A stretch of 64,000 bases of DNA from an uncultured Gammaproteobacteria bacterium (lineage in GTDB: Bacteria > Patescibacteriota > Microgenomatia > Levybacterales > GWA1-39-11). The stretch spans positions 49,252 through 113,251 of the forward strand of contig CAYOTA010000003.1 of assembly GCA_964406795.1 (NCBI GenBank), read 5' to 3'. The notes below the pieces were generated by a model that made no database searches, was not told the DNA's origin, and saw nothing but the letters and a program-made list of their open reading frames with translations. Both the position numbers and the translations under genes were made by a program. This document shows positions 49,043 to 61,176 of this stretch, one piece after another; the stretch's first letter is position 1; each line of letters begins with the position of its first letter.

Positions 49043-49249
49043 ATGAAAAGACAAAATTCGGTTAAGACAATTAAAGACCATGTGGCATTAGATGCGAAAA
49101 AGGGTAAACAAGGATTTGCATCCATGAGTAAAGATGCGCAGCGCGAGATTGCTGCAAGCGGAGGACGCGCTGCACATAAAAAAGGAACGGCGCATAAGTG
49201 GAATTCTCAAGAAGCAGCAGCTGCGGGAAAGAAAGGAGGTAGAAGCTAA
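49043..49249 (+). CDS. KGG-repeat general stress protein (YciG-like)
   Basis: 68 aa with GG(R/K) repeats GGRAAHKKG...GKKGGRS. Confidence 0.5.
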   Translation: MKRQNSVKTIKDHVALDAKKGKQGFASMSKDAQREIAASGGRAAHKKGTAHKWNSQEAAAAGKKGGRS

Positions 49250-49386: not shown

Positions 49387-49665
49387 ATGGAATTACTCTT
49401 ATGGACATTTTTTGGAGTAATGGGCGGATGGATAGCTTCTGTCATCTATGAAAGTAAGGATACATATGGCTTCCAAAAAGATGTGCTGTTGGGGATTATT
49501 GGTGCAGTTGCCGCAGGTTTAGTCATTAATTCCTTAGGCTATAGAGGCATTACAAGTTATAATGCGTTTTCTGTACTTACTGCAAGTATTTTTATAATCT
49601 CTCTTATTGGAGCAAAAAGATTATTTGAAATACAGAATAAAGGAAAAGAGTTGTGGCAGAGTTAA
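49387..49665 (+). CDS. GlsB/YeaQ/YmgE family stress-response membrane protein
   Basis: 92 aa, GGWIASVI...GIIGAVAAGLV glycine-zipper TM helices. Confidence 0.65.
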   Translation: MELLLWTFFGVMGGWIASVIYESKDTYGFQKDVLLGIIGAVAAGLVINSLGYRGITSYNAFSVLTASIFIISLIGAKRLFEIQNKGKELWQS

Positions 49666-49788: not shown

Positions 49789-50859
49789 TGTCTAGGTTGG
49801 GATACATGCAGAACGGTTGAGAGTTAATTGTCACACAGATATACTGACGTAACCATGCGTCACTACAACATTGTTCCTTGGAACCAACTGAAAGATTCAT
49901 TCATATCAACAGATGGTTTGAAAAGACTTTCTTGGATGGACTGGTACTATGCTCACGGCAAGAATGCAGAAGCAACCTGCAGGCACCTTGGTTTGTCAAG
50001 ACCGTGTTCTACCGGTGGCTCAATGGATTTGACAAGAAATCTTCTAAGCCTTGAATTTGACACAAAAACCAAAAGACCTACAAGCGTCAGAGCTCCTCAG
50101 ATTGACACTGCAATATCTCAAAGAATCTGTGACATTCGAAAAGAAGATCTTGAGAAATCCAAGTACGAAATACAGGAAGAGTTAAAACGAGAAGGAATAC
50201 ATATTGGCCAATCTGCTATTCAACGTGCTATTAATTCCCACAAAGAACTACAAAATCTCCAGCACAGACGGAAGATGAGGAGGTACAGAAACTACAAAAT
50301 TACCAGAATCAAGGCTGCAGTTGAGCTCAGAGAGAAAAGCTTGGGTTCGTTAGTCCAGGTTGACACCAAGTACTTCTACGTCTTGAATCACAAGTTCTAC
50401 ATCTTCTCAGCTATTGATTGCAAATCTCGATATGGGTTTCTCTACTGTTACCGATCTATCTTATCTCACTGCGCCAAAGACTTTATTAAAAGAGTCAGAG
50501 AGTACTTCCCCTTTGAAATCTTGGCTATTAACACTGACAATGGCTCAGAATATCTCCTTGAATTTCACCGTGAGATTGAATCTTGGGGTATCCCTCACTA
50601 TTTCACAAGTCCTCACTCCCCAAAACAAAACGGGAGAGTGGAAAGACTGCACCAGACAGCAGAGTATGAATACTTTAACTACCAAGAAGATCTCCTCGAC
50701 AATCTTTCAGCGATTAACCAACGCTGCACTGCTTTTAACACCACATACAACACAAAACGATTCCACCGTTCCCTTTCCTACAAAACACCTCTAGAAGTTG
50801 TGCTAAAATGCAAACAACAGAAAGGAGAACAACCGTTCTTTATCTAACCAACCAGGATA
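49789..50859 (+). mobile_element. IS481-family insertion sequence (about 1.07 kb) with about 31-bp imperfect terminal inverted repeats
   Basis: IRL TGTCTAGGTTGG...AGAACGGTTG at 49789-49819, IRR CAACCGTTCT...CCAACCAGGATA at 50830-50859; encloses DDE transposase; no clear target-site duplication seen. Confidence 0.6.
49828..50847 (+). CDS. IS481-family DDE transposase (HTH + rve integrase core)
   Basis: N-terminal HTH (AEATCRHLGLSR), DDE core with ...TDNGSEY... and SPKQNGRVERLHQT; TTG track start, ATG at about 49855. Confidence 0.75.
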   Translation: MSHRYTDVTMRHYNIVPWNQLKDSFISTDGLKRLSWMDWYYAHGKNAEATCRHLGLSRPCSTGGSMDLTRNLLSLEFDTKTKRPTSVRAPQIDTAISQRICDIRKEDLEKSKYEIQEELKREGIHIGQSAIQRAINSHKELQNLQHRRKMRRYRNYKITRIKAAVELREKSLGSLVQVDTKYFYVLNHKFYIFSAIDCKSRYGFLYCYRSILSHCAKDFIKRVREYFPFEILAINTDNGSEYLLEFHREIESWGIPHYFTSPHSPKQNGRVERLHQTAEYEYFNYQEDLLDNLSAINQRCTAFNTTYNTKRFHRSLSYKTPLEVVLKCKQQKGEQPFFI

Positions 50860-50885
50860 AAACCTTGACTTTGAAATAAAGTAAA

Positions 50886-50896
50886 TACACAATGTA
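50886..50896. promoter_or_regulatory. TACA-N3-TGTA dyad (BlaI/MecI/CopY-type operator) immediately upstream of blaI-like gene
   Basis: TACACAATGTA 8 nt upstream of ATG at 50904. Confidence 0.45.
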
Positions 50897-50903
50897 TATT
50901 TAG

Positions 50904-51293
50904 ATGAGAACTAAAAAAAATGTAGGTAAAGTGCTTGGAGAATTAGAGACCGATGTAATGGAAATTATTTGGAAAGCTGAAAATCCAGTCTCGGTTTTAG
51001 ATGTAGTGAAAGTTCTTGGTAAGAAACGAAAGAGTGCCTACACTACGGTCATGACAATTATGTGGAGGCTTGTTTATAAGGGTATATTAATACGTAAACT
51101 TCATGGGACAAGTTATCTTTATCAACCGAAAGTGAATCGGGAAAAATTTGTAGCAAGCTCAGTCCATGCTATCTTTACATCTGCTGTGTCAACTCTTGGA
51201 CAAGAAGTAGTTTTGCATTTTGCAAAAGAGATCCAGAAAATGAGTCCGGAAAAACGAAAAGATTTGCTTACTATGCTTAATACAGATAAATGA
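50904..51293 (+). CDS. blaI: BlaI/MecI/CopY family transcriptional repressor
   Basis: Winged-helix penicillinase-repressor pattern (METDVMEIIWK... TVMTIMWRLVYKG). Confidence 0.8.
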   Translation: MRTKKNVGKVLGELETDVMEIIWKAENPVSVLDVVKVLGKKRKSAYTTVMTIMWRLVYKGILIRKLHGTSYLYQPKVNREKFVASSVHAIFTSAVSTLGQEVVLHFAKEIQKMSPEKRKDLLTMLNTDK

Positions 51294-51296
51294 TGT

Positions 51297-52346
51297 ATGA
51301 GAATATATAAATTTAATGGAAGCTTTTTATCATTACTTCTTGTAACAGCAACTACAGCTTCACTTGTTATATTATTATTGGTAAAGTTTTTTCCATTCGT
51401 TTCAGTAAAAACATTGTATTTCTGCCAGCAATTTATCTCCAATACTCTTTATCAAATACCTCAGCTAGTTCAAAACACCTTTCTTATCGCAATAATCATT
51501 GCGCTTACTCTGGGAAGCTTGTCATTTCTTATTCAGATGGTAAAAACCAGACAATTAGTAAAATCACTCCTGAAAAATCGAGTTGCTCTTTCGCAAAGAG
51601 TGAAGAATTTGACGATTTCTCTCGGGCTTGAAGGTAAGGTTGATGTCCTTGAGGATGTTAATTGTTTTTCTTTATGTGTAGGAATTATTCATCCGCGCAT
51701 TTTAATTACAAACGCTCTTGTCACATCATTAACTGACAAAGAGCTTGAGTCAGTTTTTCTCCATGAAAAAGCGCATATCCGCAATTTTGATCCTTTTAAA
51801 ATACTATTTGGGAAAACGATAAGTTGGTTATTTTTCTTTTTACCAATATTCTCTGAAATCAATAAGAATATGCAAGCAACGAATGAAATTTTAGCTGATC
51901 AATTTGTAACGTCTTTTCAACAGGATGACATGTACTTACGCAGTGCGTTGAAGAAAATTATCATGTCTCCGCAAAAGAGCTTTTCGATAGTGCCAGCTAT
52001 AGCAAATCCGGACTATTTAGAAATACGTATTTACCGACTTATTAATCCGACAGTAAGCCAAAAATTTCATATATCATGGATAAGTATTGGTACAAGTATA
52101 CTATTTTTCTTATTTATGATGATTCTTCTGCAGGTCCCCGTGAGCGCTTTTTATATGGAAAGCTCAAAAGAAGAATCATACATTGCATGTTCTTCTGATA
52201 AATCTTGTAGCCAGGAGTGTCAGCTTACAGTTCAAGCATCAAGCGTCTCAACCCCAGAGCAATTATTTTCTCCTATTCAACAAGAAAGGAAAAATTCTAG
52301 CTCTCCTCTTCAATCTTCAAAATCTCAATCATTGAGATATAAATAA
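51297..52346 (+). CDS. blaR1: BlaR1/MecR1-like M56 metalloprotease signal transducer lacking penicillin-binding sensor; Cys/Ser-rich C-terminal tail
   Basis: Four TM helices, HEKAHI zinc motif, C-terminal ...ACSSDKSCSQECQ... instead of a PBP domain. Confidence 0.7.
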   Translation: MRIYKFNGSFLSLLLVTATTASLVILLLVKFFPFVSVKTLYFCQQFISNTLYQIPQLVQNTFLIAIIIALTLGSLSFLIQMVKTRQLVKSLLKNRVALSQRVKNLTISLGLEGKVDVLEDVNCFSLCVGIIHPRILITNALVTSLTDKELESVFLHEKAHIRNFDPFKILFGKTISWLFFFLPIFSEINKNMQATNEILADQFVTSFQQDDMYLRSALKKIIMSPQKSFSIVPAIANPDYLEIRIYRLINPTVSQKFHISWISIGTSILFFLFMMILLQVPVSAFYMESSKEESYIACSSDKSCSQECQLTVQASSVSTPEQLFSPIQQERKNSSSPLQSSKSQSLRYK

Positions 52347-52355
52347 AACCACTCC

Positions 52356-52393
52356 TTGACAAAACAGGGACTTTATTACTACAATTTGTAGTA
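52356..52393 (+). promoter_or_regulatory. Promoter (TTGACA -35) overlapped by 17-bp palindrome TACTACAA-T-TTGTAGTA (TACA-N3-TGTA operator)
   Basis: -35 at 52356-61; perfect 8-bp inverted arms at 52377-52393 covering the -10 region; 13 nt before ORF 52407 and RBS GGAGGTG. Confidence 0.5.
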
Positions 52394-52424
52394 GAAAATA
52401 TTTTACATGAAAGGAGGTGTCAAT

Positions 52425-52709
52425 ATGGCAGAACAAAAAGAAGCAACAACAGCGGCAATTCATACAATTCCAAAACAACGGGTAGATAACACAATTACCT
52501 TTCGTGTTCCAAGGCCAAATATGCAAGTCGCAGTATTAGGAATTGTTGCCTTTATCACTTTATTTCAAACAGTGCAACTATTAAGAATTAGCGGCAGTAC
52601 AGAAACTGCATCGGTGAGAGCAGTAGCAGCAACTACTAGTACAGGGGCGAGCGGCACAGGAAGTGGATCAGACGCTAGCACACCGCAATCAATGGTAGGC
52701 GGTTGCTAA
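52425..52709 (+). CDS. Small single-TM protein with Ala/Thr/Ser/Gly-rich region and C-terminal GGC
   Basis: ATG at 52425 preceded by AAGGAGGTG; TM VAVLGIVAFITLF; ends ...QSMVGGC; first gene after operator. Confidence 0.4.
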   Translation: MAEQKEATTAAIHTIPKQRVDNTITFRVPRPNMQVAVLGIVAFITLFQTVQLLRISGSTETASVRAVAATTSTGASGTGSGSDASTPQSMVGGC

Positions 52710-52736
52710 AATTGCTATTTTACTGTCTTAGAATTT

Positions 52737-53978
52737 ATGAGAAAGAAAACAACAGCACCTGTTGGTGATGTAATAATTGATGAAGCTGAAAAGAAGCAAA
52801 ATATTTCTATTGAGAAGTCCAGAGTAGTTAATTTTCCTTGGCCAAAGATATTTCTAGGAGTAGCGCTTATCGCAACAGTTGCGGGTGCACTTTTTGCCAC
52901 GAAGACACTCTCCGGAATTGATAAGAATATTGCAAATGCAAAAGAGGATGCACGGGCGGCAGATATAAAACTGATAAAAATTACAACTCCTAGTTGTGTT
53001 GACTGTTTTAACATTGATACTGCTGTCTCAACACTTAAAAAACAAAATGTATCTGTGGGGGATGAAAAAGCAGTAAACTCAGATTCTAAAGAAGGAAAAA
53101 TGCTCATTAAGCAGTTTGGGATTAAGCGACTGCCGACATATGTTGTAACCGGCGAGATATCAAAAAAGACACTAGAAAGTTTTGTTAAAAATAATGGTGA
53201 GATAAAAAGTAGAACATTTGTATTTAATAAAGTTACACCTGTTTTTGTTGATGCAACGACAAAGAAAGAAATGGGAAAAGTAACGGCAACAATTCTTATT
53301 GATCCAACATGTATCCAATGTGTTGATCCAAAACTAACAGTTGAGGCATTTAAAAAAGCAGGAGTAAAAATTATAGAGGAAAAAGAAGTTATATGGGATT
53401 CTGCAGAAGGACAAGCGCTTATTAGTCAGTATAATGTTACCCAACTTCCTACATTTCTTCTTTCAGAAGATATTGATCTTTACGATGATGTGAAAACAAA
53501 CTGGACACGAATTGGGACAGTTGAAACCGACAAAACTTACGTTGCTCGTAACTTACTGCTGCCCTACCGAGATCTCAAAAGAGGACAAATAGTTGGTCTT
53601 GTCGATCTTATCTACTTAACTGATACAACGTGTAGCGAATGTTATGATTCACAACAAGTGCAGCGGCCTATCTTAACGCAAAGTTTTGGTATAGGAATTT
53701 CTTCCGAGCGCACTGTTGACGTAAACTCTTCTGTTGGACAAGAATTAGTTAATCAATATAAGATTGTAAAAGTTCCTACAGTTCTATTATCATCTGATGC
53801 TGGTCAATATCCGGGGTTAAAAAACGTTTGGTCTAGTGTGGGAACGATTGAATCTGATGGTTGGTATGTCTTTCGAGAAATGGCTCAGATTGGCAATGTT
53901 ATCTACAAAGATTTAGCAAGCAATCAAGTAATTCGCCCAGCACAGCAAGCAGTAACTGGAAATCCAGCAAATCAATAA
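52737..53978 (+). CDS. Membrane-anchored protein with three tandem thioredoxin-fold domains (CVDC, CIQC, CSEC)
   Basis: N-terminal TM helix then three repeats each with CxxC and a cis-Pro-like (L/V)PT segment. Confidence 0.55.
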   Translation: MRKKTTAPVGDVIIDEAEKKQNISIEKSRVVNFPWPKIFLGVALIATVAGALFATKTLSGIDKNIANAKEDARAADIKLIKITTPSCVDCFNIDTAVSTLKKQNVSVGDEKAVNSDSKEGKMLIKQFGIKRLPTYVVTGEISKKTLESFVKNNGEIKSRTFVFNKVTPVFVDATTKKEMGKVTATILIDPTCIQCVDPKLTVEAFKKAGVKIIEEKEVIWDSAEGQALISQYNVTQLPTFLLSEDIDLYDDVKTNWTRIGTVETDKTYVARNLLLPYRDLKRGQIVGLVDLIYLTDTTCSECYDSQQVQRPILTQSFGIGISSERTVDVNSSVGQELVNQYKIVKVPTVLLSSDAGQYPGLKNVWSSVGTIESDGWYVFREMAQIGNVIYKDLASNQVIRPAQQAVTGNPANQ

Positions 53979-53979
53979 T

Positions 53980-55266
53980 ATGGAAAAACTATTTGCATCA
54001 TTTAAGATCATTTTTAAAGAACCTAGCTATATAAAAATTGCTGCATTTACGTCACTTGTTGTTACGTATATATCATATTGGTTATTTAGCCAGACCACGA
54101 CAGCTTCCTCTTTTATTAATAGTATGCAGAGTGGAGACTTTGGCAAGTATAGTTTTGCTTATGGTATTACATATATTATTACAACTATTTTTATTATCCT
54201 CTTATCAGGGGTGAGTATTGCTACGACAGTATGGTTATTTCGACATTCAAAACTGGGGTTGCAAAAAGCGGCAGGTGGGAATGTTGGTGGTCTTATTAGT
54301 GCAGCATTTGCGATGGGCTGCCCTGTTTGCGGAGGATTCTTATTATCTTTTCTTGGCATTGCAGGTGGTCTTACTATTTTCCCTTTTCAAGGTTTAGAGT
54401 TAAAACTTTTAAGCTTGGTACTTCTTGGTATATCTGCTTGGTACGGTTTATCTAAGGTCAACAAAAAAGACTGTGAAGACTGTATGGATATTCGTAACCA
54501 CACTGTATTAAAAAGTCAAGGTATCAAAATTGGAGGAAAACGACTAATTGTTTTACCTCTTGATAAAGCAATTGTGACTATTATTACGCTTTTATTTGTC
54601 ATAAATCAGCTTTTTATTAGTCAAATTGCTATGGCAATGGGGATTGCTCCACAAGGGGGATCTTTGGCAAGCCTTTTAGGAATTCGTCAGGCTAATGCGT
54701 ATGCAATAATAGCACCTAAAATCAATCCTGATGGTAAGACGACTGTTCTGGTTGAACAGCCAACAATTTCAGAGGTATTGGCAAATCCGAATACTGGAAA
54801 TGTTTTAGAGGATGCGAAAGTTGTTATGATGGCAACGGGAAAGCCATTTTATGCTCCTGAAGATATTTCTTTTGATGACCCTATTAATGCGCAAAATAAA
54901 TGGGGTGCATATGAAAGCAGTATCCAGCTATCAAGTGCATTACAAGCCAGATTTGATACTATGATTAATACAATGATGGTATGCAGTTACTGTTGTGGAT
55001 CTCCTAGCAATGTTACTCTCATTGGTAATTGTGGTTGTGCACATGCAAGGGCGGTAAGAGGATTTTATAAATATATGCTGCAAACGTATGGTGATAAATA
55101 TACAAATGAACAGTTAGTAGGAGAATCACACCGCTGGTATGGTATCTGGTATCCAAAAGGTATGCTTGAAGATTATTTACTTGCAACTGGCAAAGGAAGC
55201 GCGCTGCCTCATGAGACACATGGAGGAGCGGGGGTCGATGGTATGCATGGACTCACTACACAGTAG
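53980..55266 (+). CDS. Cys-rich polytopic membrane protein with His/Met-rich C-terminus (putative metal/redox membrane protein)
   Basis: GCPVCGG in TM region, KDCEDC, CSYCCGSPSN...GNCGC, C-terminal HETHGGAGVDGMHG. Confidence 0.4.
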   Translation: MEKLFASFKIIFKEPSYIKIAAFTSLVVTYISYWLFSQTTTASSFINSMQSGDFGKYSFAYGITYIITTIFIILLSGVSIATTVWLFRHSKLGLQKAAGGNVGGLISAAFAMGCPVCGGFLLSFLGIAGGLTIFPFQGLELKLLSLVLLGISAWYGLSKVNKKDCEDCMDIRNHTVLKSQGIKIGGKRLIVLPLDKAIVTIITLLFVINQLFISQIAMAMGIAPQGGSLASLLGIRQANAYAIIAPKINPDGKTTVLVEQPTISEVLANPNTGNVLEDAKVVMMATGKPFYAPEDISFDDPINAQNKWGAYESSIQLSSALQARFDTMINTMMVCSYCCGSPSNVTLIGNCGCAHARAVRGFYKYMLQTYGDKYTNEQLVGESHRWYGIWYPKGMLEDYLLATGKGSALPHETHGGAGVDGMHGLTTQ

Positions 55267-55274
55267 AATTATTT

Positions 55275-55688
55275 ATGAAAAAGAGTATTATTTTTTGGGT
55301 AATTATTGCACTTCTTATTCTTTTAGGAATTTTTGGTCGCGGCATTTTTAATCCGCAACCAAAAAACATACCTCAATTGGGGACTGAAACTCCTGCTCAA
55401 AATTCATCATCTTCTATGGCAGGAACTATAACGGTCAAAGGATTCAATAGTGGATTTTCTCCAAAAACTATTACAGTTAAACAGGGAGATATGGTAATGC
55501 TCAATCTCGTTAGTGATGATTCACCCCACACATTTACTATTGATGAGCTGAATATAAATCAACAGTTTACCTATGGTAAAGATGCATCTGTCATGTTTAC
55601 TGCAAGCAAGAAAGGAACATTTCAGTTTTATTGTGTTGTGCCGGGTCATAAAGAAGCAGGAATGGTCGGATCGCTAATCATTGAATAA
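55275..55688 (+). CDS. Cupredoxin-like (type-1 copper) domain protein, membrane-anchored
   Basis: SPHTF His plus FYCVVPGHKEAGM (C-x4-H-x4-M) ligand spacing as in azurin-type blue copper proteins. Confidence 0.5.
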   Translation: MKKSIIFWVIIALLILLGIFGRGIFNPQPKNIPQLGTETPAQNSSSSMAGTITVKGFNSGFSPKTITVKQGDMVMLNLVSDDSPHTFTIDELNINQQFTYGKDASVMFTASKKGTFQFYCVVPGHKEAGMVGSLIIE

Positions 55689-56133
55689 GCTTACACCAAT
55701 AATGACTGAATTCATCCGTGATATAAAAACAAGAATCGGTTTTACGATTAGCTCTTTTTTGTCTGCGTTGGGAGCTGGAGGGGGTGCGACTTCGGCTGTC
55801 TGTCAGACAACATGCTCTACCGGAAGCGCATTGCCATTTTTTTTAGGCTTAACTCTTTCAGCAACACCATTTGCCTTTATAGAGGATTATCAAATCCCGC
55901 TATGGTGGCTCTCTTTTGCAGTGTTTGGAATATTGACATTTCTTTTTATGAAAAAAATACTTTATTCAAAGACTGACAGGGCATTGTTGTTTCTTAACTT
56001 TGGATTTTTACTCATTGGTTTTCCTTATTTTCGTGATACACTTACTATGCTTCCTTGGATTGGATTGTTTGTTTCTATTATGGCGTTATATTTACTACTT
56101 TTAGCAAAACGTATAATTATTCAATGGACATAA
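55681..56133 (+). CDS. Small polytopic membrane protein with CxxxC (CQTTC)
   Basis: 150 aa, overlaps cupredoxin gene by 8 nt. Confidence 0.35.
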   Translation: MNKLTPIMTEFIRDIKTRIGFTISSFLSALGAGGGATSAVCQTTCSTGSALPFFLGLTLSATPFAFIEDYQIPLWWLSFAVFGILTFLFMKKILYSKTDRALLFLNFGFLLIGFPYFRDTLTMLPWIGLFVSIMALYLLLLAKRIIIQWT

Positions 56134-56134
56134 A

Positions 56135-56284
56135 ATGAAAAAAACAGAAAGTTCAGGTGTAAAAGAGGCAGGATGGGAATTTACTGTTCCAGGCTATGTT
56201 GCCAGCCCAGTTACCTGGCTGATACTTCTCCTAGCAGGAGTTGCTCTTTTACTATTATTTATTCTGATAAATAAAGTTTTATAA
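56135..56284 (+). CDS. Small C-terminally TM-anchored protein, 49 aa
   Basis: ATG 1 nt after previous stop (coupling); below ORF-track cut-off; followed by AGGAGGAG RBS of next gene. Confidence 0.3.
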   Translation: MKKTESSGVKEAGWEFTVPGYVASPVTWLILLLAGVALLLLFILINKVL

Positions 56285-56332
56285 GCTAGCAATACTTAGT
56301 CCTCACATTACGCCAGGAGGAGAAAAAATGCA

Positions 56333-57244
56333 ATGAGAACACGAGCAAAAAATATTACTGTTAAAAATAGACAAAAAATATTATTCAGTGTAGGTATTTT
56401 GCTCCTATCTTTGGCATTTATACCTTTTGTCAGGGAGTATAGAGATTTTTTCCTCTTTGCTGGTATAATTTTTCTTCTTATTGGTGTTATTCAGCTGACT
56501 TTTCATCCAAAAGTTGTTTATAGAGACTTATCGGAAACAGGTAGTGGTTTTGAGGATGCCAAGCAAACTACTCAAGAGAACCCAGTATTAAAAATGCCGT
56601 TTTCCATGAAGCAAAGCCCAATGACCTTATTCCTATTCTTTCTTATAATTGGTGGATTTATTATCAATCAAGTGTTTATAATGCGATATAATAAAATTTC
56701 TGCATCAAAAAATGTTGAGAATACTACACCTGTACAGAGCGCAGTTAAAGTTCCGGTAGTTAGTGCCGCTGATGAGATTATTAAAACAGAATTACAACAA
56801 CAAGGAAAAGAAGTACCCGTTTTAGGTACTGCACATGATCATGCTGATTTAAATGTGTACATTAATGGACAAAGGCAGATACTTGCAAAACCTGAAAATT
56901 ATATGAAGAGCTCATTTATGCATATTGATAATAATCCAAATTTGGACGATGCCAATAGTGTTTTACACATGCATGCAAAGAGCGTACTATTATGGACATT
57001 CTTTACAAGTCTTGGCATGAACCTAACACAAGATAGCTTGACTCTAACCGATGGACAAATATTAAAAAACGAAAATGGAAATACATTAAAATTTTACCTT
57101 AATGGACAAAAAGTAGATGAGTTAGGCGATTATTCGTTCCAGCCACTTGATAAAATGCTCATAAGTTATGGCCCGGAAAACGATCCTAATGTGCAAGAGC
57201 AATTGAGAGTAATGACGAATTTTGCGAAAGATCACCAAAAATGA
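56333..57244 (+). CDS. Membrane-anchored extracytoplasmic protein with paired His motifs (HDH...HMH), paralog A
   Basis: Two N-terminal TM helices; TAHDHADLNVYINGQRQ ... HMHAK ... FYLNGQK pattern shared with next gene. Confidence 0.4.
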   Translation: MRTRAKNITVKNRQKILFSVGILLLSLAFIPFVREYRDFFLFAGIIFLLIGVIQLTFHPKVVYRDLSETGSGFEDAKQTTQENPVLKMPFSMKQSPMTLFLFFLIIGGFIINQVFIMRYNKISASKNVENTTPVQSAVKVPVVSAADEIIKTELQQQGKEVPVLGTAHDHADLNVYINGQRQILAKPENYMKSSFMHIDNNPNLDDANSVLHMHAKSVLLWTFFTSLGMNLTQDSLTLTDGQILKNENGNTLKFYLNGQKVDELGDYSFQPLDKMLISYGPENDPNVQEQLRVMTNFAKDHQK

Positions 57245-57792
57245 GTAAACACACCAAATATAATACGTTTATAGAGCAGCCACAACAAAAAAGGAGCTTT
57301 TTAAAAAATCCACTAGCGTTCCTAGAAGGATTGAATACGGAAGCAAAGGTTATTGGTGGGATTGGGTTATTAACCCTTGTAATTTTAGTGGGTGGCATTA
57401 CTCTTCTGTCATTACAGCAGGCAAAAGAGGCTTCTATTCCAGAAGGAGATGTGGTATCTCGCAGTGGTATACACTGGCATCCACAGGTTTCAATCTCTAT
57501 TAAAGGGAAGCAGCAACAGATTCCAGCTAACTTAGGTATTGGCGGTGTTCACCAACCAGTTCATACACATGATACGAGTGGTCAGCTCCATGTGGAAATA
57601 GGCGGTGTCGTTACAAGAGATAATATAAAACTTAATAATTTTTTCAAAATTTGGGGCAAGAAGCTTAGTTCTGAATGTGTTGTTGATGAATGTGGAGGCA
57701 AAACAATAATGCTTGTTAATGGGAAAGAAAATAAGGAATTTGGCAATTATTTGATGAAAGATAAAGATAATATAGAAATACGATATGAATAG
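57241..57792 (+). CDS. Membrane-anchored extracytoplasmic protein with paired His motifs (HWH...HTH), paralog B
   Basis: IHWHPQVSISIKGKQQQ ... HTHDTSGQLH ... IMLVNGKEN; 4-nt overlap with paralog A. Confidence 0.4.
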   Translation: MSKHTKYNTFIEQPQQKRSFLKNPLAFLEGLNTEAKVIGGIGLLTLVILVGGITLLSLQQAKEASIPEGDVVSRSGIHWHPQVSISIKGKQQQIPANLGIGGVHQPVHTHDTSGQLHVEIGGVVTRDNIKLNNFFKIWGKKLSSECVVDECGGKTIMLVNGKENKEFGNYLMKDKDNIEIRYE

Positions 57793-57807
57793 TATCATTC
57801 AAGCTTA

Positions 57808-58485
57808 ATGGATGCTGTTTTACTATCTTTTGCCTTTCTTGCAGGATTGCAAGCTTTTTTTGCACCTTGCAGTATCGCTTTAATTCCTGCCTATGTTGGG
57901 TATTATGTTAGCGAAGAAAATCAGCCAGTAGGTCACGCGCAGCAGTTATTTTACGGTTTGAAAGCAGGCAGTATTGCAAGCTTGGGTTTAATTAGTATTT
58001 ATGCTATTTTTGGCGTTATTCTTGCACTTTTAGGAAGGCTTATTGCTCCTTTTATGTCGTGGATTGAGCTTTCAACCGGAGGATTGTTACTATTTTTAGG
58101 GGTTGCGACGCTTTTGGGATATGAATTTGCGCTGCGGCCTCCTGTTGCTATCAACAGTCGTGCGAAAGGAGCAGGACGCTTCTATTTTTTTGGTATCGCT
58201 TATGCGCTTGGAGCAATCGGTTGTACATTACCTATATTTCTTTTAGTCATCTTTCAAGCGCTTGCGCAAAAGGGCATGCTGGGAGGATTTGCAAATTTTC
58301 TTGCATATAGTGTAGCGATGGTGAGTCTCATGATTCTTTTTTCACTTATTGCCGCAGTTTCAAAAACTGCTATTTCACGCTTTTTAAAACGATACATGCT
58401 AGTAATTCAAAAAAGTGCAGGGATACTCGTGCTTCTTGCTGGTGTATACATGGTATATCTTGCATTAAAAGTAATCACAATATGA
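57808..58485 (+). CDS. ccdA: Cytochrome c biogenesis/thiol-disulfide transporter CcdA (DsbD family)
   Basis: Six TM helices with the two conserved Cys (FAPCSIAL and AIGCTLPIF). Confidence 0.8.
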   Translation: MDAVLLSFAFLAGLQAFFAPCSIALIPAYVGYYVSEENQPVGHAQQLFYGLKAGSIASLGLISIYAIFGVILALLGRLIAPFMSWIELSTGGLLLFLGVATLLGYEFALRPPVAINSRAKGAGRFYFFGIAYALGAIGCTLPIFLLVIFQALAQKGMLGGFANFLAYSVAMVSLMILFSLIAAVSKTAISRFLKRYMLVIQKSAGILVLLAGVYMVYLALKVITI

Positions 58486-59009
58486 AACTTCCAAAAATAG
58501 AATGGACAAATAGTCCATTATTTAAAAAAACGCCATTGCTTCTTGTTATTGGCGTTGTTTTGTTTGTTGGGTTTAATGTCTATCTTTACCTCAAAATTCA
58601 AAAAGCATCAAGTGATATAGTGCAAATGCAAGCTACTGTCACAAAACCAGCACGGAAAGTTTCTACGGAATTTTCAAAAAAGATTCAGCTTGGTGAGAAA
58701 CAATGTCCGTACCAAAAAGCAGGTAATCCCAATGCACCTTTAAAATTCAAACTATTTGAGTCAGAAACATGCCCCTATTGTATCGCGCAAAATAAAGTGA
58801 TGGATGAAATCTTACCGGAATATGGTGATCTCATGTACATTGAGTGGTATGAAGTAATCGAATGCGAAAAAGAATCTGAGCAGTATAAAATCTCCGGTGT
58901 GCCTACTTTTGTCTTTACTGCTCAGGGAATTGAAAAACCACCTGCATATGGATTTTTAGATAAGCAGCAAATAGTTGATTATATTTGTAGGGTTTCAGGA
59001 GAATGCTAG
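58482..59009 (+). CDS. Membrane-anchored thioredoxin-like protein (CPYC)
   Basis: N-terminal TM helix, ETCPYCIAQ active site and downstream VPTFVF cis-Pro region. Confidence 0.6.
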   Translation: MKLPKIEWTNSPLFKKTPLLLVIGVVLFVGFNVYLYLKIQKASSDIVQMQATVTKPARKVSTEFSKKIQLGEKQCPYQKAGNPNAPLKFKLFESETCPYCIAQNKVMDEILPEYGDLMYIEWYEVIECEKESEQYKISGVPTFVFTAQGIEKPPAYGFLDKQQIVDYICRVSGEC

Positions 59010-60433: not shown

Positions 60434-60661
60434 ATGCAAAAAGATACAACAATGGAATCATTAGCTGATAAAACAGGAGATAGTTTTGATATAGCATTTG
60501 TCGTGGCTATGACAGATCATCATAATAAAGCTATAGAAATGGCTAAACTTGCAAAAGAAAAAAGCAGCCGTAAAGAAACCCTAGAGCTTTCGGAAAATAT
60601 TATTTCCGCCCAGACAAAAGAAAATGAGCAGATGGAAATATGGAAGTCCGAATGGAAGTAG
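60434..60661 (+). CDS. DUF305 mini-protein (single half-repeat)
   Basis: GGAGGTGA RBS; FDIAFVVAMTDHHNKAIEMAK matches DUF305 His motif; only 75 aa. Confidence 0.5.
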   Translation: MQKDTTMESLADKTGDSFDIAFVVAMTDHHNKAIEMAKLAKEKSSRKETLELSENIISAQTKENEQMEIWKSEWK

Positions 60662-61176
60662 CCAAAGATTTACTTATGGAACAAGAAAAGCAACCCGAAC
60701 ATGACTTTAGTCAAATAAGAAGGAGTATTGTAGTCGTGGCAATGAAACTATTGGTGTTGCTTATTTTATTTGAAGCATTGTATATAACACTCTTTTATTT
60801 TCTGAAAGTCTTTTTTAATCTTCCGCTTGAGTGGCATCACCATTCATCAATCATCTTGCTTGGAATAAATGTAGTTAAAATCATATTGGAATTTTCCTTT
60901 ATTCTTTATTTATTTTTCCAGTGGGCAGGAACAAGTTATTTTATTGCCAAAAAACATATTATCAAACGAGTTGGCATTATGAGTAGCCGGGAAGAGGTTT
61001 TTCATTTTGATAATATTCGCTCGCTTACTGTTAGTCAATCTTTTTTAGGAAAAATATTTAACTATGGAGATATTGAAGTCAAAACTAGCGCTTCAGGTGG
61101 ATACCAAGCAACATTAGTTCTTGTAAGTATAAATGATCCTCATAAGTACGAAGCTCATCTAAAAACACTTTTTTAA
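60640..61176 (+). CDS. YdbS-like membrane protein with bacterial PH (bPH_2) domain
   Basis: Two TM helices then IAKKHIIKRVGIMSSREEVFHFDNIRSLTVSQSFLGKIFNYGDIEVKT. Confidence 0.5.
   Translation: MEVRMEVAKDLLMEQEKQPEHDFSQIRRSIVVVAMKLLVLLILFEALYITLFYFLKVFFNLPLEWHHHSSIILLGINVVKIILEFSFILYLFFQWAGTSYFIAKKHIIKRVGIMSSREEVFHFDNIRSLTVSQSFLGKIFNYGDIEVKTSASGGYQATLVLVSINDPHKYEAHLKTLF

What the first reader, a model, noticed from the sequence alone, without database searches (positions are those of the whole stretch)
50886..59009. IS-adjacent, BlaI/BlaR1-controlled island encoding an extracytoplasmic thiol-redox and copper-handling system
A BlaI/CopY-family repressor and a sensor-less BlaR1-like M56 protease sit just after an IS481 element. 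The protease carries a Cys/Ser-rich ectodomain in place of a penicillin-binding domain. They precede a tightly packed, same-strand run of about 12 genes with overlaps or short gaps. That run encodes a GGC-terminated mini membrane protein, a triple thioredoxin-fold protein, a Cys-rich polytopic protein with a His/Met-rich tail, and an azurin-type cupredoxin. It also encodes two small membrane proteins, two paralogous HxH-motif ectoproteins, CcdA and a CPYC thioredoxin. The combination reads as a regulated envelope system that supplies reducing equivalents (CcdA to Trx domains) and binds or handles copper, or another thiophilic metal. BlaR1-type proteases with non-beta-lactam sensors coupled to such a cargo do not match any characterised operon I know of. 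The lineage is apparently fermentative and reduced, so the cupredoxin is also unexpected. Downstream Crp/Fnr, DUF305 and zur-znuABC genes reinforce a metal theme.
Basis: partly seen in the sequence, partly recalled or inferred. Interest (0 to 1): 0.8.

Follow-up and report, generated by a model that had tools for sequence, protein, structure and literature searches.

The report
Copper-linked cysteine-arm envelope operon
This is not a mobile island but an operon conserved across the tiny Patescibacteria (with relatives in DPANN archaea); a BlaI/M56 repressor-protease pair controls uncharacterised membrane proteins built around an invariant C-terminal "MVGGC" cysteine arm, thioredoxin domains and a new cysteine-rich domain, and its neighbours point to copper handling at the cell surface.

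Summary
The "IS-adjacent island" reading is wrong. The IS481 copy is unique to this genome. The block is conserved across Patescibacteria: small100, triple-Trx and CysMem occur in essentially all 37 related loci and BlaI-M56 in most.

A perfect BlaI-type operator, TACTACA-N3-TGTAGTA, overlaps the -10 of the cargo promoter. It co-occurs with the regulator pair across loci.

New findings:
- The small protein's tail ...PxSMVGGC-COOH is invariant.
- In the wider superfamily (about 1,300 clusters, including DPANN archaea) the same LPx(M/Q)VGGC tail is fused to the Cys-rich ectodomain (CxxCC...CxCxH).
- That ectodomain weakly resembles CcmH.
- The HxH proteins are beta-grasp domains with five invariant His, sometimes fused to cupredoxin.
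- Copper-type P1B ATPases lie within 10 kb in 10 of 34 Patescibacteria loci and 4 of 7 distant loci, often with HMA, CsoR, YHS or cupredoxin genes.

Best reading: a copper-responsive (PetRP-like), BlaI/M56-repressed extracytoplasmic cysteine-relay and copper-handling system, kept reduced by CcdA/Trx. The exact chemistry is unresolved. The regulators are a known kind; the cargo families are uncharacterised.

The parts
49795..50853 (+). IS481-family insertion sequence. It is adjacent to the system but is NOT part of the conserved system.
   Evidence: The transposase carries rve and rve_3 domains. Imperfect terminal inverted repeats lie at 49795-49819 and 50830-50853. No homologue occurs in any of the 37 related loci.
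50865..50897 (+). blaI promoter (TTGACT-17-CACAAT) with a degenerate BlaI-type palindrome, ATACAcaaTGTAT (50885-50897).
   Evidence: Better copies of the palindrome sit at the same place upstream of blaI in L004, L006, L007 and L029.
50904..51293 (+). BlaI/CopY-family winged-helix repressor with no Cys residues.
   Evidence: Penicillinase_R, E 7.5e-26. The NCBIfam CopY_TcrY score is 54.7 bits, below the cutoff. There is no conserved Cys.
51297..52346 (+). Sensor-less M56 zinc metalloprotease (BlaR1/PetP-like). It has TM helices, a cytoplasmic HExxH domain and a 69-aa extracytoplasmic Ser/Cys tail.
   Evidence: Peptidase_M56, E 8.8e-15. H156/H160 and C127 are conserved. The match to BlaR1 structure 8exs covers residues 179-327 only.
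52356..52393 (+). Cargo promoter, TTGACA-18-TACAAT. Its -10 lies inside a perfect operator, TACTACAATTTGTAGTA (52377-52393).
   Evidence: This is the best promoter match in the region, 11 of 12 positions. It is the only operator match in 64 kb even with 2 mismatches allowed. The site is conserved upstream of small100 in 17 of 25 loci that carry BlaI, and near-matches occur in others. It is absent from loci without the regulators.
52407..52709 (+). small100, the 'cysteine-arm' protein. It has an N-in TM anchor, a Ser/Thr/Gly/Ala-rich linker and an invariant C-terminus ...vPqSMVGGC-COOH.
   Evidence: Alignment of 33 orthologues. The same tail is fused to the Cys-rich domain in 65 of 101 distant representatives. 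It is also present on a second small protein in all 7 distant loci.
52737..53978 (+). Membrane-anchored protein with three thioredoxin-like domains, each with a conserved CxxC (C87/C90, C192/C195, C299/C302).
   Evidence: Pfam Thioredoxin and Thioredoxin_2 hits. Cys conservation in 34 sequences. The protein is present in all informative loci.
53980..55266 (+). CysMem, with three regions. The N-domain (about residues 1-170) is a polytopic membrane domain with an invariant TM motif C114-P-x-C117-G; it is followed by a cytoplasmic-side C165xxC168. TM5 carries an F..NQ motif. The extracytoplasmic C-domain (about residues 240-400) carries C335xxC338C339...C351xC353xH355. The tail is HxxHGGAGxDGxHG.
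55275..55688 (+). Membrane-anchored type-1 (blue) cupredoxin.
   Evidence: Cupredoxin_1, E 8e-13, and Copper-bind, E 6.5e-8. H85, C120, H125 and M130 are conserved. The closest solved structures are the tethered cupredoxin of Cu nitrite reductases and nitrosocyanin.
55681..56133 (+). mem150, a small polytopic membrane protein with a conserved VCxxxC (C41/C45).
   Evidence: It has no family hit.
56135..56284 (+). mem49, a 49-aa single-pass membrane protein.
   Evidence: Homologues occur in several related loci, for example L006 and L007.
56333..57244 (+). HxH303, which combines TM helices (DYxDFF... and IIGGFxxNQ motifs) with an extracytoplasmic His-cluster domain.
   Evidence: It is not in Pfam.
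57241..57792 (+). HxH183, a TM anchor plus a beta-grasp ectodomain with five invariant His and one Glu (HWH...HTH...HxE).
57808..58485 (+). CcdA/DsbD-like six-TM thiol-disulfide transporter.
   Evidence: Weak DsbD_TM and DsbD_2 hits. C21 (FAPC) and C139 (GCTLP) are conserved. Six TM helices are predicted.
58482..59009 (+). Membrane-anchored thioredoxin (CPYC). It also has conserved C75 and C128, and a conserved Cys as its last residue (C175).
   Evidence: Pfam Thioredoxin scores 25.3 bits against a cutoff of 23.5.

Best explanation
This is a chromosomal operon conserved across the phylum. It encodes an extracytoplasmic cysteine-relay and copper-handling system under BlaI/M56 control.

Regulation
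- Shown: a BlaI-type repressor gene and a sensor-less M56 protease gene precede the cargo. A perfect TACTACA-N3-TGTAGTA operator overlaps the -10 of the cargo promoter. A weaker copy sits at the blaI promoter.
- Inferred: without a signal, BlaI blocks transcription. A signal at the outer face of the membrane, most likely copper as for cyanobacterial PetP, activates the M56 protease. The protease cleaves BlaI and the operon is derepressed.

Cargo
- All cargo proteins are membrane-anchored with their domains outside the cell.
- The invariant core has three parts. The first is a tethered flexible arm ending in ...PxSMVGGC-COOH. The second is a protein with three CxxC thioredoxin domains. The third is CysMem.
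- CysMem has an ectodomain carrying a CxxCC...CxCxH cluster in a CcmH-like helical scaffold. It also has a CPxC pair inside the membrane and a CxxC on the cytoplasmic side.
- Inferred: the terminal Cys of the arm works with the Cys cluster. In distant relatives the two are one polypeptide. Together they either bind and pass on Cu(I) by thiolate ligand exchange, or shuttle a mixed disulfide.
- Inferred: the triple-Trx protein and the CcdA-to-Trx175 pathway keep these thiols reduced in an oxidising, copper-exposed envelope.
- Inferred: the cupredoxin and the His-cluster beta-grasp proteins bind or redox-cycle copper.
- Inferred: the membrane CPxC and cytoplasmic CxxC pairs carry either Cu(I) or reducing equivalents across the membrane. 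I cannot decide which.

Net role (inferred): copper tolerance or copper handling at the surface of cells that have no outer membrane, no quinones and no DsbB.
For: Conservation
- small100, triple-Trx and CysMem occur in all informative loci among 37. BlaI-M56 occurs in at least 26 of about 33. The accessory genes vary between loci.

Regulation
- The operator overlaps the best promoter in the region.
- It is conserved upstream of small100 in 17 of 25 regulator-bearing loci under a strict pattern. It is absent where the regulators are absent.
- The M56 protein has HExxH but no sensor domain.
- PetR/PetP is a precedent for copper-dependent proteolysis by a sensor-less M56 protease (PMC7896320, bioRxiv 10.1101/2020.07.31.226407).

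Link between the arm and the Cys cluster
- The MVGGC-COOH tail is invariant.
- Of 101 distant C-domain representatives, 65 end in LPx(M/Q)VGGC.
- Each of the 7 distant loci has both a tail-fused C-domain protein and a small tail protein. The two tails match at the M/Q position in 7 of 7 loci.
- The six Cys/His residues of the cluster are more than 90% conserved over 102 divergent proteins.

Thiol-redox evidence
- Three conserved CxxC motifs in the triple-Trx protein, the two CcdA cysteines and the CPYC thioredoxin.
- Redoxin plus DsbD_TM genes flank the distant homologues.

Copper evidence
- A type-1 cupredoxin is in the operon.
- The HxH domain is fused to cupredoxin in P0192 and P0218.
- TIGR01511 copper P1B ATPases, all scoring above cutoff, lie within 10 kb in 10 of 34 Patescibacteria loci.
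- CopA-type ATPases lie within 6 kb in 4 of 7 distant loci. HMA, CsoR, YHS, DUF2933 and Cupredoxin_1 genes accompany them.
- In L040 a BlaI-M56 pair directly precedes HMA-HMA-DsbD-cupredoxin-CopA.
- DUF2933 is a recurrent member of copA-cupredoxin loci (PMC8478169).
Against: - There is no experimental data, and no core protein has a characterised homologue.
- The BlaI protein lacks CopY's metal-binding Cys motif, so copper sensing must reside in M56. No conserved Met/His/Cys sensor motif was established there; only semi-conserved Cys residues in the tail were seen.
- The operator differs from PetR's GACN5GTC.
- The Met of the tail is replaced by Gln in many distant members. This weakens the idea of Met-Cys Cu(I) ligation.
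- This window itself holds no CopA or HMA gene.
- The extracytoplasmic location rests only on a hydropathy and charge-bias heuristic and on partner logic.
- The neighbourhood counts are not corrected for phylogenetic relatedness.
Confidence: 0.5

Rival explanations
1. A metal-independent envelope thiol-disulfide system. It would act as a Dsb-, PDI- or reductase-like folding or repair machine for surface proteins, induced by thiol or oxidative stress rather than by copper. The Cys arm and the CxxCC domain would be pure redox relays.
For: - The invariant core is dominated by CxxC and Trx elements.
- CcdA/DsbD, Redoxin and DsbA-like genes are the most constant neighbours.
- The Cys-rich ectodomain resembles CcmH.
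- Some loci (L002, L019, L025-L027, L041) show no copper gene in view.
Against: - Copper P1B ATPases, HMA, CsoR, YHS and cupredoxins are strongly over-represented next to the family.
- The HxH domain is fused to cupredoxin.
- CysMem has a His-rich tail.
- The regulator family has copper-sensing precedents in CopY and PetRP.
Confidence: 0.2
2. The same architecture, but for another thiophilic metal (Hg, Ag, Cd, Zn). It would work as a Mer-like Cys-pair relay that moves the metal across the membrane.
For: - The layout of Cys pairs (extracytoplasmic, in-membrane CPxC, cytoplasmic CxxC) mirrors MerP/MerT logic (established knowledge of the Mer pathway).
- The neighbouring HMA domains also score on MerP and MerTP models.
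- Zinc genes lie downstream in the window.
Against: - All ten neighbouring ATPases exceed the cutoff of the copper subfamily model TIGR01511; they also pass the generic heavy-metal (TIGR01525) and Cd-subfamily (TIGR01512) cutoffs, but score highest on the copper and generic models, and none reaches the ZntA cutoff.
- The neighbours include cupredoxins, CsoR and YHS.
- No MerA, MerB or MerR genes are present, and there are no Pfam Mer hits.
- znuABC is not a conserved neighbour.
Confidence: 0.1
3. A sulfur-carrier system. The C-terminal GGC arm would carry covalent sulfur adducts (persulfide or thiosulfonate), as the SoxY GGCGG arm does, and the Cys-rich domain and Trx proteins would process them.
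For: - The invariant Gly-Gly-Cys at the end of a flexible tail resembles the SoxY carrier arm (own knowledge).
- One distant N-domain protein is fused to a cytochrome c domain.
- A DsrE-family gene lies near L044.
Against: - No Sox, Dsr or rhodanese genes are conserved nearby.
- The arm sits on a disordered tether, not on a SoxY fold.
- The host lineages lack the respiratory chains that use Sox.
- Copper genes dominate the neighbourhoods.
Confidence: 0.07
4. A variant cytochrome c or heme maturation pathway (CcdA, ResA-like Trx, CcmH-like protein).
For: CcdA, a membrane-anchored Trx and a CcmH-like domain are the thiol branch of cytochrome c maturation.
Against: - No operon protein contains a CxxCH motif.
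- No CcsBA/ResBC or CcmABCEF genes occur in any locus.
- There is no Pfam CcmH hit.
- The conserved partners are cupredoxins and copper exporters.
Confidence: 0.03
5. One reading: a horizontally acquired metal-resistance island that travels with IS elements.
For: An IS481-family element ends 12 bp before the blaI -35 box.
Against: - The IS is absent from all 37 related loci.
- GC content matches the flanks.
- Gene order is conserved across Daviesbacteria, WWE3, Levy-, Roizman-, Woese-, Pace- and Uhrbacteria and Parcubacteria, in varied chromosomal contexts.
- The blaI promoter and operator are intact downstream of the IS.
Confidence: 0.03

Closest known systems
PetR/PetP of cyanobacteria (Synechocystis slr0240/slr0241)
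   Same: - A BlaI/CopY-family repressor without the CopY Cys motif is encoded next to a BlaR1-like M48/M56 membrane protease that lacks the penicillin-binding sensor.
- The two genes abut.
- The regulated genes include a type-1 cupredoxin.
- In PetRP, degradation of the repressor requires the protease and copper (PMC7896320; bioRxiv 10.1101/2020.07.31.226407).
   Different: - The operator here is TACTACA-N3-TGTAGTA (S. aureus bla/mec-like), not GACN5GTC.
- The cargo is a 10-gene thiol, Cys-arm and copper set rather than petE/petJ.
- The host is non-photosynthetic.
- The copper response is untested here.
BlaI/BlaR1 and MecI/MecR1 of staphylococci
   Same: - A winged-helix repressor and an M56 zinc protease with HExxH.
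- An operator built on TACA/TGTA half-sites that overlaps the promoter.
- Probable autoregulation.
   Different: - There is no extracellular penicillin-binding sensor domain.
- The regulon contains no beta-lactamase or PBP gene.
ScsABCD (suppressor of copper sensitivity) and the TlpA-Sco-CoxB reductive pathway
   Same: - Envelope thioredoxin-fold proteins are fed by a DsbD/CcdA-type membrane reductase.
- They are coupled functionally to copper tolerance or to the metallation of cupredoxin-type sites.
- This comparison rests on established knowledge of these systems, and it is an analogy of kind only.
   Different: - There is no sequence membership.
- The core here consists of unrelated families: the Cys-arm protein, the CxxCC...CxCxH domain, the CPxC membrane domain and the triple-Trx protein.
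- Control is by BlaI/M56 rather than CpxR or similar regulators.
CcmH (System I cytochrome c maturation thiol-oxidoreductase)
   Same: - Profile alignment puts C335xxC338 on the CcmH CxxC after helix 1.
- The protein is partnered with CcdA and a membrane-anchored Trx.
   Different: - There is no HMMER or Pfam similarity.
- An extra CC, a CxCxH and a beta-hairpin subdomain are present.
- There is no heme machinery and no CxxCH substrate.
- The domain is linked to a C-terminal Cys arm.
SoxY carrier arm, the MerA C-terminal Cys tail and the Erv2 shuttle arm (swinging-arm cysteines)
   Same: A Gly-rich flexible C-terminal segment presents a reactive Cys to partner active sites. This comparison rests on established knowledge and is an analogy of mechanism only.
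   Different: - The arm here is on a membrane-tethered disordered linker or on the Cys-rich domain.
- The consensus is LPx(M/Q)VGGC-COOH with Cys as the last residue.
- What the arm carries (metal, disulfide or adduct) is unknown.

Membership tests
BlaI/MecI/CopY (Penicillinase_R) repressors | Winged-helix Penicillinase_R domain | tested here: met
   PF03965, E 7.5e-26, 91 bits against a cutoff of 22.6, covering profile positions 1-114 of 115.
BlaI/MecI/CopY (Penicillinase_R) repressors | Inverted-repeat operator with TACA/TGTA half-sites at the regulated promoter | tested here: met
   TACTACAATTTGTAGTA at 52377-52393 overlaps the -10. It is the only match in 64 kb. It is conserved in orthologous loci that carry the regulators. 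Actual binding was not tested.
CopY/TcrY copper repressors | C-terminal CxCxxxxCxC metal-binding motif, and a score above the NCBIfam equivalog cutoff | tested here: not met
   The protein has no Cys and the family has no conserved Cys. TIGR02698 scores 54.7 bits against a cutoff of 121.95.
BlaR1/MecR1 beta-lactam sensor-transducers | M56 zinc-protease domain with HExxH between TM helices | tested here: met
   PF05569, E 8.8e-15. H156 and H160 are conserved. The protein aligns to BlaR1 structure 8exs over residues 179-327.
BlaR1/MecR1 beta-lactam sensor-transducers | C-terminal extracellular penicillin-binding (acyl-serine) sensor domain | tested here: not met
   The protein ends 69 aa after the last TM helix and has no transpeptidase-type hit. 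NCBIfam blaR1_generic scores 28.5 bits against a cutoff of 400.
PetR/PetP-type copper switch | A BlaI-type repressor without a Cys motif, encoded next to a sensor-less M56 protease | tested here: met
   The two genes are 3 nt apart, and the domain content is as above.
PetR/PetP-type copper switch | Copper-dependent degradation of the repressor by the protease | not testable with these tools
   This needs in vitro or in vivo proteolysis assays with and without Cu. The only evidence here is circumstantial, from copper genes in the neighbourhoods.
PetR/PetP-type copper switch | GACN5GTC operator core | tested here: not met
   The operator here is TACTACA-N3-TGTAGTA.
CcdA/DsbD thiol-disulfide transporters | Six TM helices, one conserved Cys in TM1 and one in TM4 (Pro-Cys context), and a Pfam match | tested here: inconclusive
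   Six TM helices are predicted, and C21 (FAPC) and C139 (GCTLP) are conserved. However, DsbD_TM scores 20.1 bits against a cutoff of 27.1, and DsbD_2 scores 17.4 against 24.9.
Thioredoxin-fold oxidoreductases (triple-Trx protein and Trx175) | Thioredoxin-like domain with a CxxC active site | tested here: met
   The triple-Trx protein scores 28.0 bits on Thioredoxin (cutoff 23.5) and 28.6 on Thioredoxin_2 (cutoff 27). Its hits fall in all three repeats, and it has three conserved CxxC motifs. Trx175 scores 25.3 bits on Thioredoxin (cutoff 23.5) and has a conserved CPYC.
Type-1 (blue) cupredoxins | Cupredoxin fold with His-Cys-His-Met copper ligands | tested here: met
   Cupredoxin_1 scores 48.7 bits (cutoff 27) and Copper-bind scores 33.3 (cutoff 21.2). 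H85, C120 and H125 are at least 90% conserved and M130 at least 60%. PDB relatives are listed. Copper binding itself was not tested.
CcmH | Three-helix bundle with CxxC after helix 1, a Pfam CcmH match, and partnership with heme lyase or apocytochrome | tested here: inconclusive
   [not shown]
SoxY sulfur carrier | A C-terminal GGCGG arm on a SoxY fold, partnered with SoxZ/AX/B | tested here: not met
   Only the Gly-Gly-Cys resemblance holds. There is no family hit, and no Sox genes occur in the neighbourhoods.
IS-borne genomic island | Atypical base composition, and an association with mobile elements that recurs in relatives | tested here: not met
   GC content is 0.34-0.39, as in the flanks. 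The IS occurs in 0 of 37 related loci.

The most novel reading that the evidence does not exclude
The LPx(M/Q)VGGC-COOH tail is a previously undescribed swinging-arm carrier cysteine.
- It would work with a new extracytoplasmic CxxCC...CxCxH domain (distantly CcmH-like), a new CPxC membrane conduit and a triple-Trx protein.
- Together these would form a surface machine specific to Patescibacteria and DPANN archaea.
- The machine would move Cu(I), or a covalent adduct, between sites.
- That would make it a new type of metal or thiol trafficking device shared by the two ultra-small episymbiont radiations.
Probability: 0.3. Interest if true: 0.8.

Novelty: new variant of a known kind. Interest (0 to 1): 0.62.

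Why it matters
Patescibacteria and DPANN archaea make up a large share of microbial diversity. Most of their conserved surface proteins have no known function.

What this locus offers:
- It defines a widespread, tightly organised system of about 1,300 sequence clusters, built from at least three families absent from Pfam and NCBIfam.
- It provides an unmistakable motif, a terminal ...MVGGC cysteine arm.
- It provides a clear regulatory handle, a BlaI operator.
- It carries a strong genomic link to copper export genes.

If the copper reading holds, it would:
- extend the PetRP paradigm of a protease-gated BlaI-type copper switch far beyond cyanobacteria;
- show how cells without quinones, DsbB or an outer membrane keep surface thiols functional under copper stress;
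- give biochemists a compact, soluble ectodomain-plus-peptide pair to test.

Tried and rejected
- Rfam scan of the window: nothing found.
- Pfam and NCBIfam on small100, CysMem, mem150, mem49, HxH303 and HxH183: no families.
- PDB sequence searches with HxH183, the CysMem profile and the triple-Trx protein: no significant hits.
- Foldseek of the full CysMem model against the PDB: nothing with E < 0.7. The TM half of that model has low confidence.
- hhalign of the C-domain family against the neighbouring PCYCGC protein: not significant. The PCYCGC protein itself is CcmH-like at its C-terminus.
- Cluster look-up of ten distant representatives: no names or taxonomy.
- Literature search for the MVGGC motif: only irrelevant hits.
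- Look-up of the window's own CysMem in the contig index: not on record, so the source assembly was not identified.
- Beta-lactam resistance was considered and rejected. There is no sensor domain and no bla or PBP cargo.
- Cytochrome c maturation was considered and rejected. There is no CxxCH motif and no heme lyase.
- A RiPP precursor reading of small100 was considered and rejected. It has a TM anchor, a low-complexity linker and no modifying enzymes.
- An Fe-S CCG-domain reading of the Cys cluster was considered and rejected. There is no PF02754 hit and the domain is exported behind an N-in anchor.
- The idea that the CysMem N-domain simply replaces CcdA was tested and not upheld. C-domain-only forms are nearly always followed by CcdA/DsbD plus Trx, but most full-length forms have CcdA too.

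Full report
**1.

- BlaI (50904-51293) matches Penicillinase_R with E 7.5e-26.
- The M56 protease (51297-52346) matches Peptidase_M56 with E 8.8e-15. It has a conserved HExxH but no penicillin-binding domain.
- The M56 protein aligns to the solved S. aureus BlaR1 only over the protease region and the last TM helix. It ends in a 69-aa Ser/Cys-containing tail.
- The cargo, in order, is:
  - a 100-aa protein ending in GGC;
  - a 413-aa protein with three CxxC thioredoxin-like repeats;
  - a 428-aa Cys-rich polytopic protein;
  - a type-1 cupredoxin with His85, Cys120, His125 and Met130;
  - two small membrane proteins;
  - two HxH proteins;
  - a CcdA-like six-TM protein;
  - a CPYC thioredoxin.
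- The IS481-type element is real, with inverted repeats at 49795-49819 and 50830-50853.
- Crp/Fnr, a truncated DUF305, a Fur-family gene and znuABC lie downstream.

**2. It is a conserved operon, not an island**

- The Cys-rich membrane protein (CysMem) has more than 260 close homologues. All named ones come from Patescibacteria; the nearest named relatives are Daviesbacteria.
- I examined 37 related loci: 34 from species-representative genomes plus three others.
- A phmmer survey of those loci with the window's proteins gave three results:
  - small100, triple-Trx and CysMem occur together, in that order, wherever the contig allows.
  - BlaI-M56 precede them in at least 26 of about 33 informative loci.
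  - The downstream genes (cupredoxin, mem150, mem49, HxH303, HxH183 or DUF3105, CcdA, Trx175) come and go.
- The IS transposase, Crp/Fnr, DUF305 and the PH-domain gene have no counterpart in any related locus.
- GC content is native.
- The IS ends 12 bp upstream of an intact blaI promoter. Its adjacency is therefore incidental.

**3. Regulation**

- The M56-small100 spacer holds the best sigma-70-type promoter of the region, TTGACA-18-TACAAT.
- The -10 box lies inside a perfect palindrome, TACTACAATTTGTAGTA (52377-52393). This is the only match in the 64-kb window even with two mismatches allowed.
- The same site, at the same place, occurs in 17 of 25 regulator-bearing loci under a strict pattern. 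Most of the others have near-matches.
- The site is missing from loci that lack BlaI-M56, which carry ordinary promoters instead.
- Several loci also have the site just upstream of blaI. The window has a degenerate copy there, ATACAcaaTGTAT at 50885-50897.
- From my own knowledge, the half-sites are those of the staphylococcal bla/mec operators.
- Repression of the cargo by BlaI is therefore well supported by sequence. The inducing signal is not.
- The repressor has no cysteine at all, so it cannot sense metal the way CopY does.
- The closest characterised pair is cyanobacterial PetR/PetP. There, a sensor-less M48/M56 protease degrades a BlaI-type repressor only when copper is present, and so controls plastocyanin (PMC7896320, bioRxiv 10.1101/2020.07.31.226407).

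**4. The core proteins**

*small100*
- It has a conserved LRVPKPNxQ motif, one TM helix, a Ser/Thr/Gly/Ala-rich linker and an invariant C-terminus ...vPqSMVGGC in all 33 orthologues.

*CysMem* (alignment A1) is a fusion of two modules. A profile search of 1.84 billion cluster representatives finds these modules separately: 1,297 clusters at E <= 1e-3.
- The N-domain is polytopic. It carries an invariant C114-P-x-C117-G inside a TM helix and a PxxGLExK motif. About half of the members also have a CxxC on the predicted cytoplasmic side.
- The C-domain follows a TM helix with an F..NQ motif. It carries C335xxC338C339...C351xC353xH355, and each of these residues is more than 90% conserved over 102 divergent proteins.
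- AlphaFold models the C-domain with confidence (pLDDT 80-98). The membrane part is modelled poorly.
- Foldseek finds nothing for the model in the PDB.
- Two independent profile-profile comparisons align helix-plus-CxxC of the C-domain to helix 1 plus LRCPKC of CcmH. Statistics are weak: E about 2e-3, probability 13-15%.
- I treat the CcmH-like assignment as tentative.

**5. The arm and the Cys cluster belong together**

- Of 101 C-domain-containing representatives, 65 end in exactly ...LPx(M/Q)VGGC.
- The exceptions are fragments, a subfamily with another tail, and the window's own subfamily. That subfamily ends in HxxHGGAGxDGxHG and has the MVGGC tail on the separate small100 protein.
- The tail-fused family occurs in DPANN archaea (Micrarchaeia, Diapherotrites, Woesearchaeota) as well as in bacteria.
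- In seven such loci the C-domain protein is followed by a small TM protein that also ends in LPxxVGGC.
- Next in those loci comes a two- or three-repeat Trx protein, or Redoxin plus DsbD genes; one locus (L039) instead has an unassigned 404-aa protein with a DsbD_2 gene further downstream.
- The variable M/Q position agrees between the two tails in 7 of 7 loci. This suggests a shared partner.
- This fusion-and-fission pattern is the strongest evidence that the terminal cysteine works with the CxxCC...CxCxH site.

**6. The copper link**

- Inside the operon sit a type-1 cupredoxin and two His-cluster proteins.
- HxH183 has 112 homologues with five invariant His and one Glu. Two of them are fused to cupredoxin domains.
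- The HxH183 ectodomain folds with mean pLDDT 94 into a beta-grasp. This is most like the structural-genomics 'putative metal binding protein' 3u7z and the transcobalamin beta domains.
- In other loci the same slot is occupied by DUF3105.
- Outside the operon, 10 of 34 Patescibacteria loci have a P1B ATPase within 10 kb that scores above the cutoff of the copper-translocating subfamily TIGR01511.
- Among the seven distant loci, four have a CopA-type ATPase within 6 kb. HMA proteins, Cupredoxin_1, CsoR, YHS, DUF2933 and an HMA-DsbD-cupredoxin fusion accompany them.
- In L040 a BlaI-M56 pair directly precedes HMA-HMA-DsbD-cupredoxin-cupredoxin-CopA.
- DUF2933 is a regular member of copA-cupredoxin loci in copper-resistant Alteromonas (PMC8478169).
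- These counts are not corrected for phylogeny. They are still far above what a roughly 1-Mb genome with one copA gene would give by chance.

**7. Mechanism**

*Shown*
- The gene set and its conservation.
- The operator at the cargo promoter.
- The Cys/His motifs.
- The fusion link between arm and cluster.
- The copper-gene neighbourhood.

*Inferred*
- M56 is activated by copper, or less likely by thiol oxidation, and cleaves BlaI.
- The cargo domains face outward. This rests on charge bias, CcdA logic and the low-complexity linkers.
- The arm cysteine and the Cys cluster bind and pass on Cu(I), or exchange disulfides.
- The triple-Trx protein and the CcdA-to-Trx175 pathway keep them reduced. 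The analogy is TlpA-Sco-CoxB and ScsABCD, from established knowledge.
- The cupredoxin and the HxH proteins bind or redox-cycle copper.

*Open*
- Whether the in-membrane CPxC and the cytoplasmic CxxC carry metal (Mer-like ligand exchange) or electrons (DsbD-like) cannot be decided.
- Stand-alone N-domain paralogues sit next to a Trx or a cupredoxin.
- One distant member is fused to cytochrome c.
- C-domain-only forms are almost always followed by CcdA/DsbD plus Trx, but so are most full-length forms.

**8. Rivals**

- A metal-independent Dsb-like system is the main alternative, since the most constant parts are thiol-redox parts.
- Another thiophilic metal is possible.
- A SoxY-like sulfur carrier is possible but lacks supporting genes.
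- Cytochrome c maturation is unlikely. There is no CxxCH motif and no heme lyase.
- Beta-lactam sensing and an IS-borne island are effectively excluded.

**9. Verdict**

- The regulators are a new member of the BlaI/M56 (PetRP-like) kind.
- The cargo core consists of uncharacterised families with a striking invariant motif, shared by Patescibacteria and DPANN archaea.
- I class the whole as a new variant of a known kind: copper-linked envelope thiol systems.
- I put a real chance, about 0.3, on the cysteine-arm device being mechanistically new.

Noticed in passing
window 49795-50853: An IS481-family element of about 1.06 kb, with imperfect 24-25-nt terminal inverted repeats (GGTTGG...AACGGTTG). 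It ends 12 bp before the blaI -35 box. No obvious target-site duplication was seen, and no second copy was looked for elsewhere in the window.
   Followed up: partly
window 60434-60661 and 60640-61176: The DUF305 ORF is only 75 aa long and matches just the C-terminal half of the family (profile positions 81-150 of 151). It is probably a truncated remnant. It overlaps the start of a bPH_2 (bacterial PH domain) membrane protein gene.
   Followed up: no
window 49043-49249 and 49387-49665: A KGG-repeat stress protein gene lies just upstream of the IS, followed by an ORF with only a sub-threshold Transgly_assoc (GlsB-like) match. A PMT_2/TPR glycosyltransferase-like membrane protein is encoded at 47258-48964 on the minus strand.
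   Followed up: no
CysMem TM5 (window about 54570-54640), HxH303 TM3 (about 56630-56690), small100 TM (about 52530-52590); also A5 proteins: A shared polar motif sits at the outer end of the anchor helices: F/L-x-x-N-Q-(L/F) in CysMem TM5, in HxH303 and in the anchors of distant C-domain proteins, and F-Q-T-x-Q-L in small100. It may mark helix-helix assembly of a membrane complex.
   Followed up: no
window 58482-59009 (Trx175): The CPYC thioredoxin also ends in a conserved C-terminal cysteine (...SGEC-COOH, C175). It has two further conserved Cys, C75 and C128.
   Followed up: no
L038 5480-5986: A PCYCGC-family (PF13798) protein lies next to the Micrarchaeal C-domain gene. Its C-terminal segment is clearly CcmH-like (hhalign probability 93.5%, E 2.3e-7, against E. 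coli and P. aeruginosa CcmH). A link between PCYCGC and CcmH appears not to have been noted before.
   Followed up: partly
P0352 (434 aa, metagenomic): A protein that fuses a cytochrome c domain (PF00034, E 1.5e-10) to the CPxC membrane N-domain. This hints at an electron-transfer role for that domain in some lineages.
   Followed up: no
P0240, P0286 (about 500 aa): The N-domain is fused to a different C-terminal domain with a YRPCCGNSxAxPDCxHG motif. This may be a sister version of the Cys-rich ectodomain.
   Followed up: no
L038 8058-8297, L039 8977-9219, L040 6949-7206, L043 8296-8523, L044 7560-7820: A recurrent protein of 75-86 aa in the DPANN-type loci. It has a TM anchor followed by C-x-x-P-P-G...W-x-x-H-x-x-H-H-P-D-x-Y-x-x-C. 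This is another unassigned small protein that looks like a Cys/His metal binder.
   Followed up: no
L009, L013, L022, L024 (HxH303 orthologues): Longer HxH303 forms carry two additions: an N-terminal extension of about four TM helices with a C-H-x-x-C motif (mem150-like), and an inserted Cys-rich segment DKNNDGICDxCGMPxQxCIDxGQxDC.
   Followed up: no
Genome contigs record titles: Many MAG records that carry this Patescibacteria-type locus are titled 'uncultured Gammaproteobacteria bacterium'. These titles are probably placeholder or mislabelled taxonomy in the deposited records.
   Followed up: no
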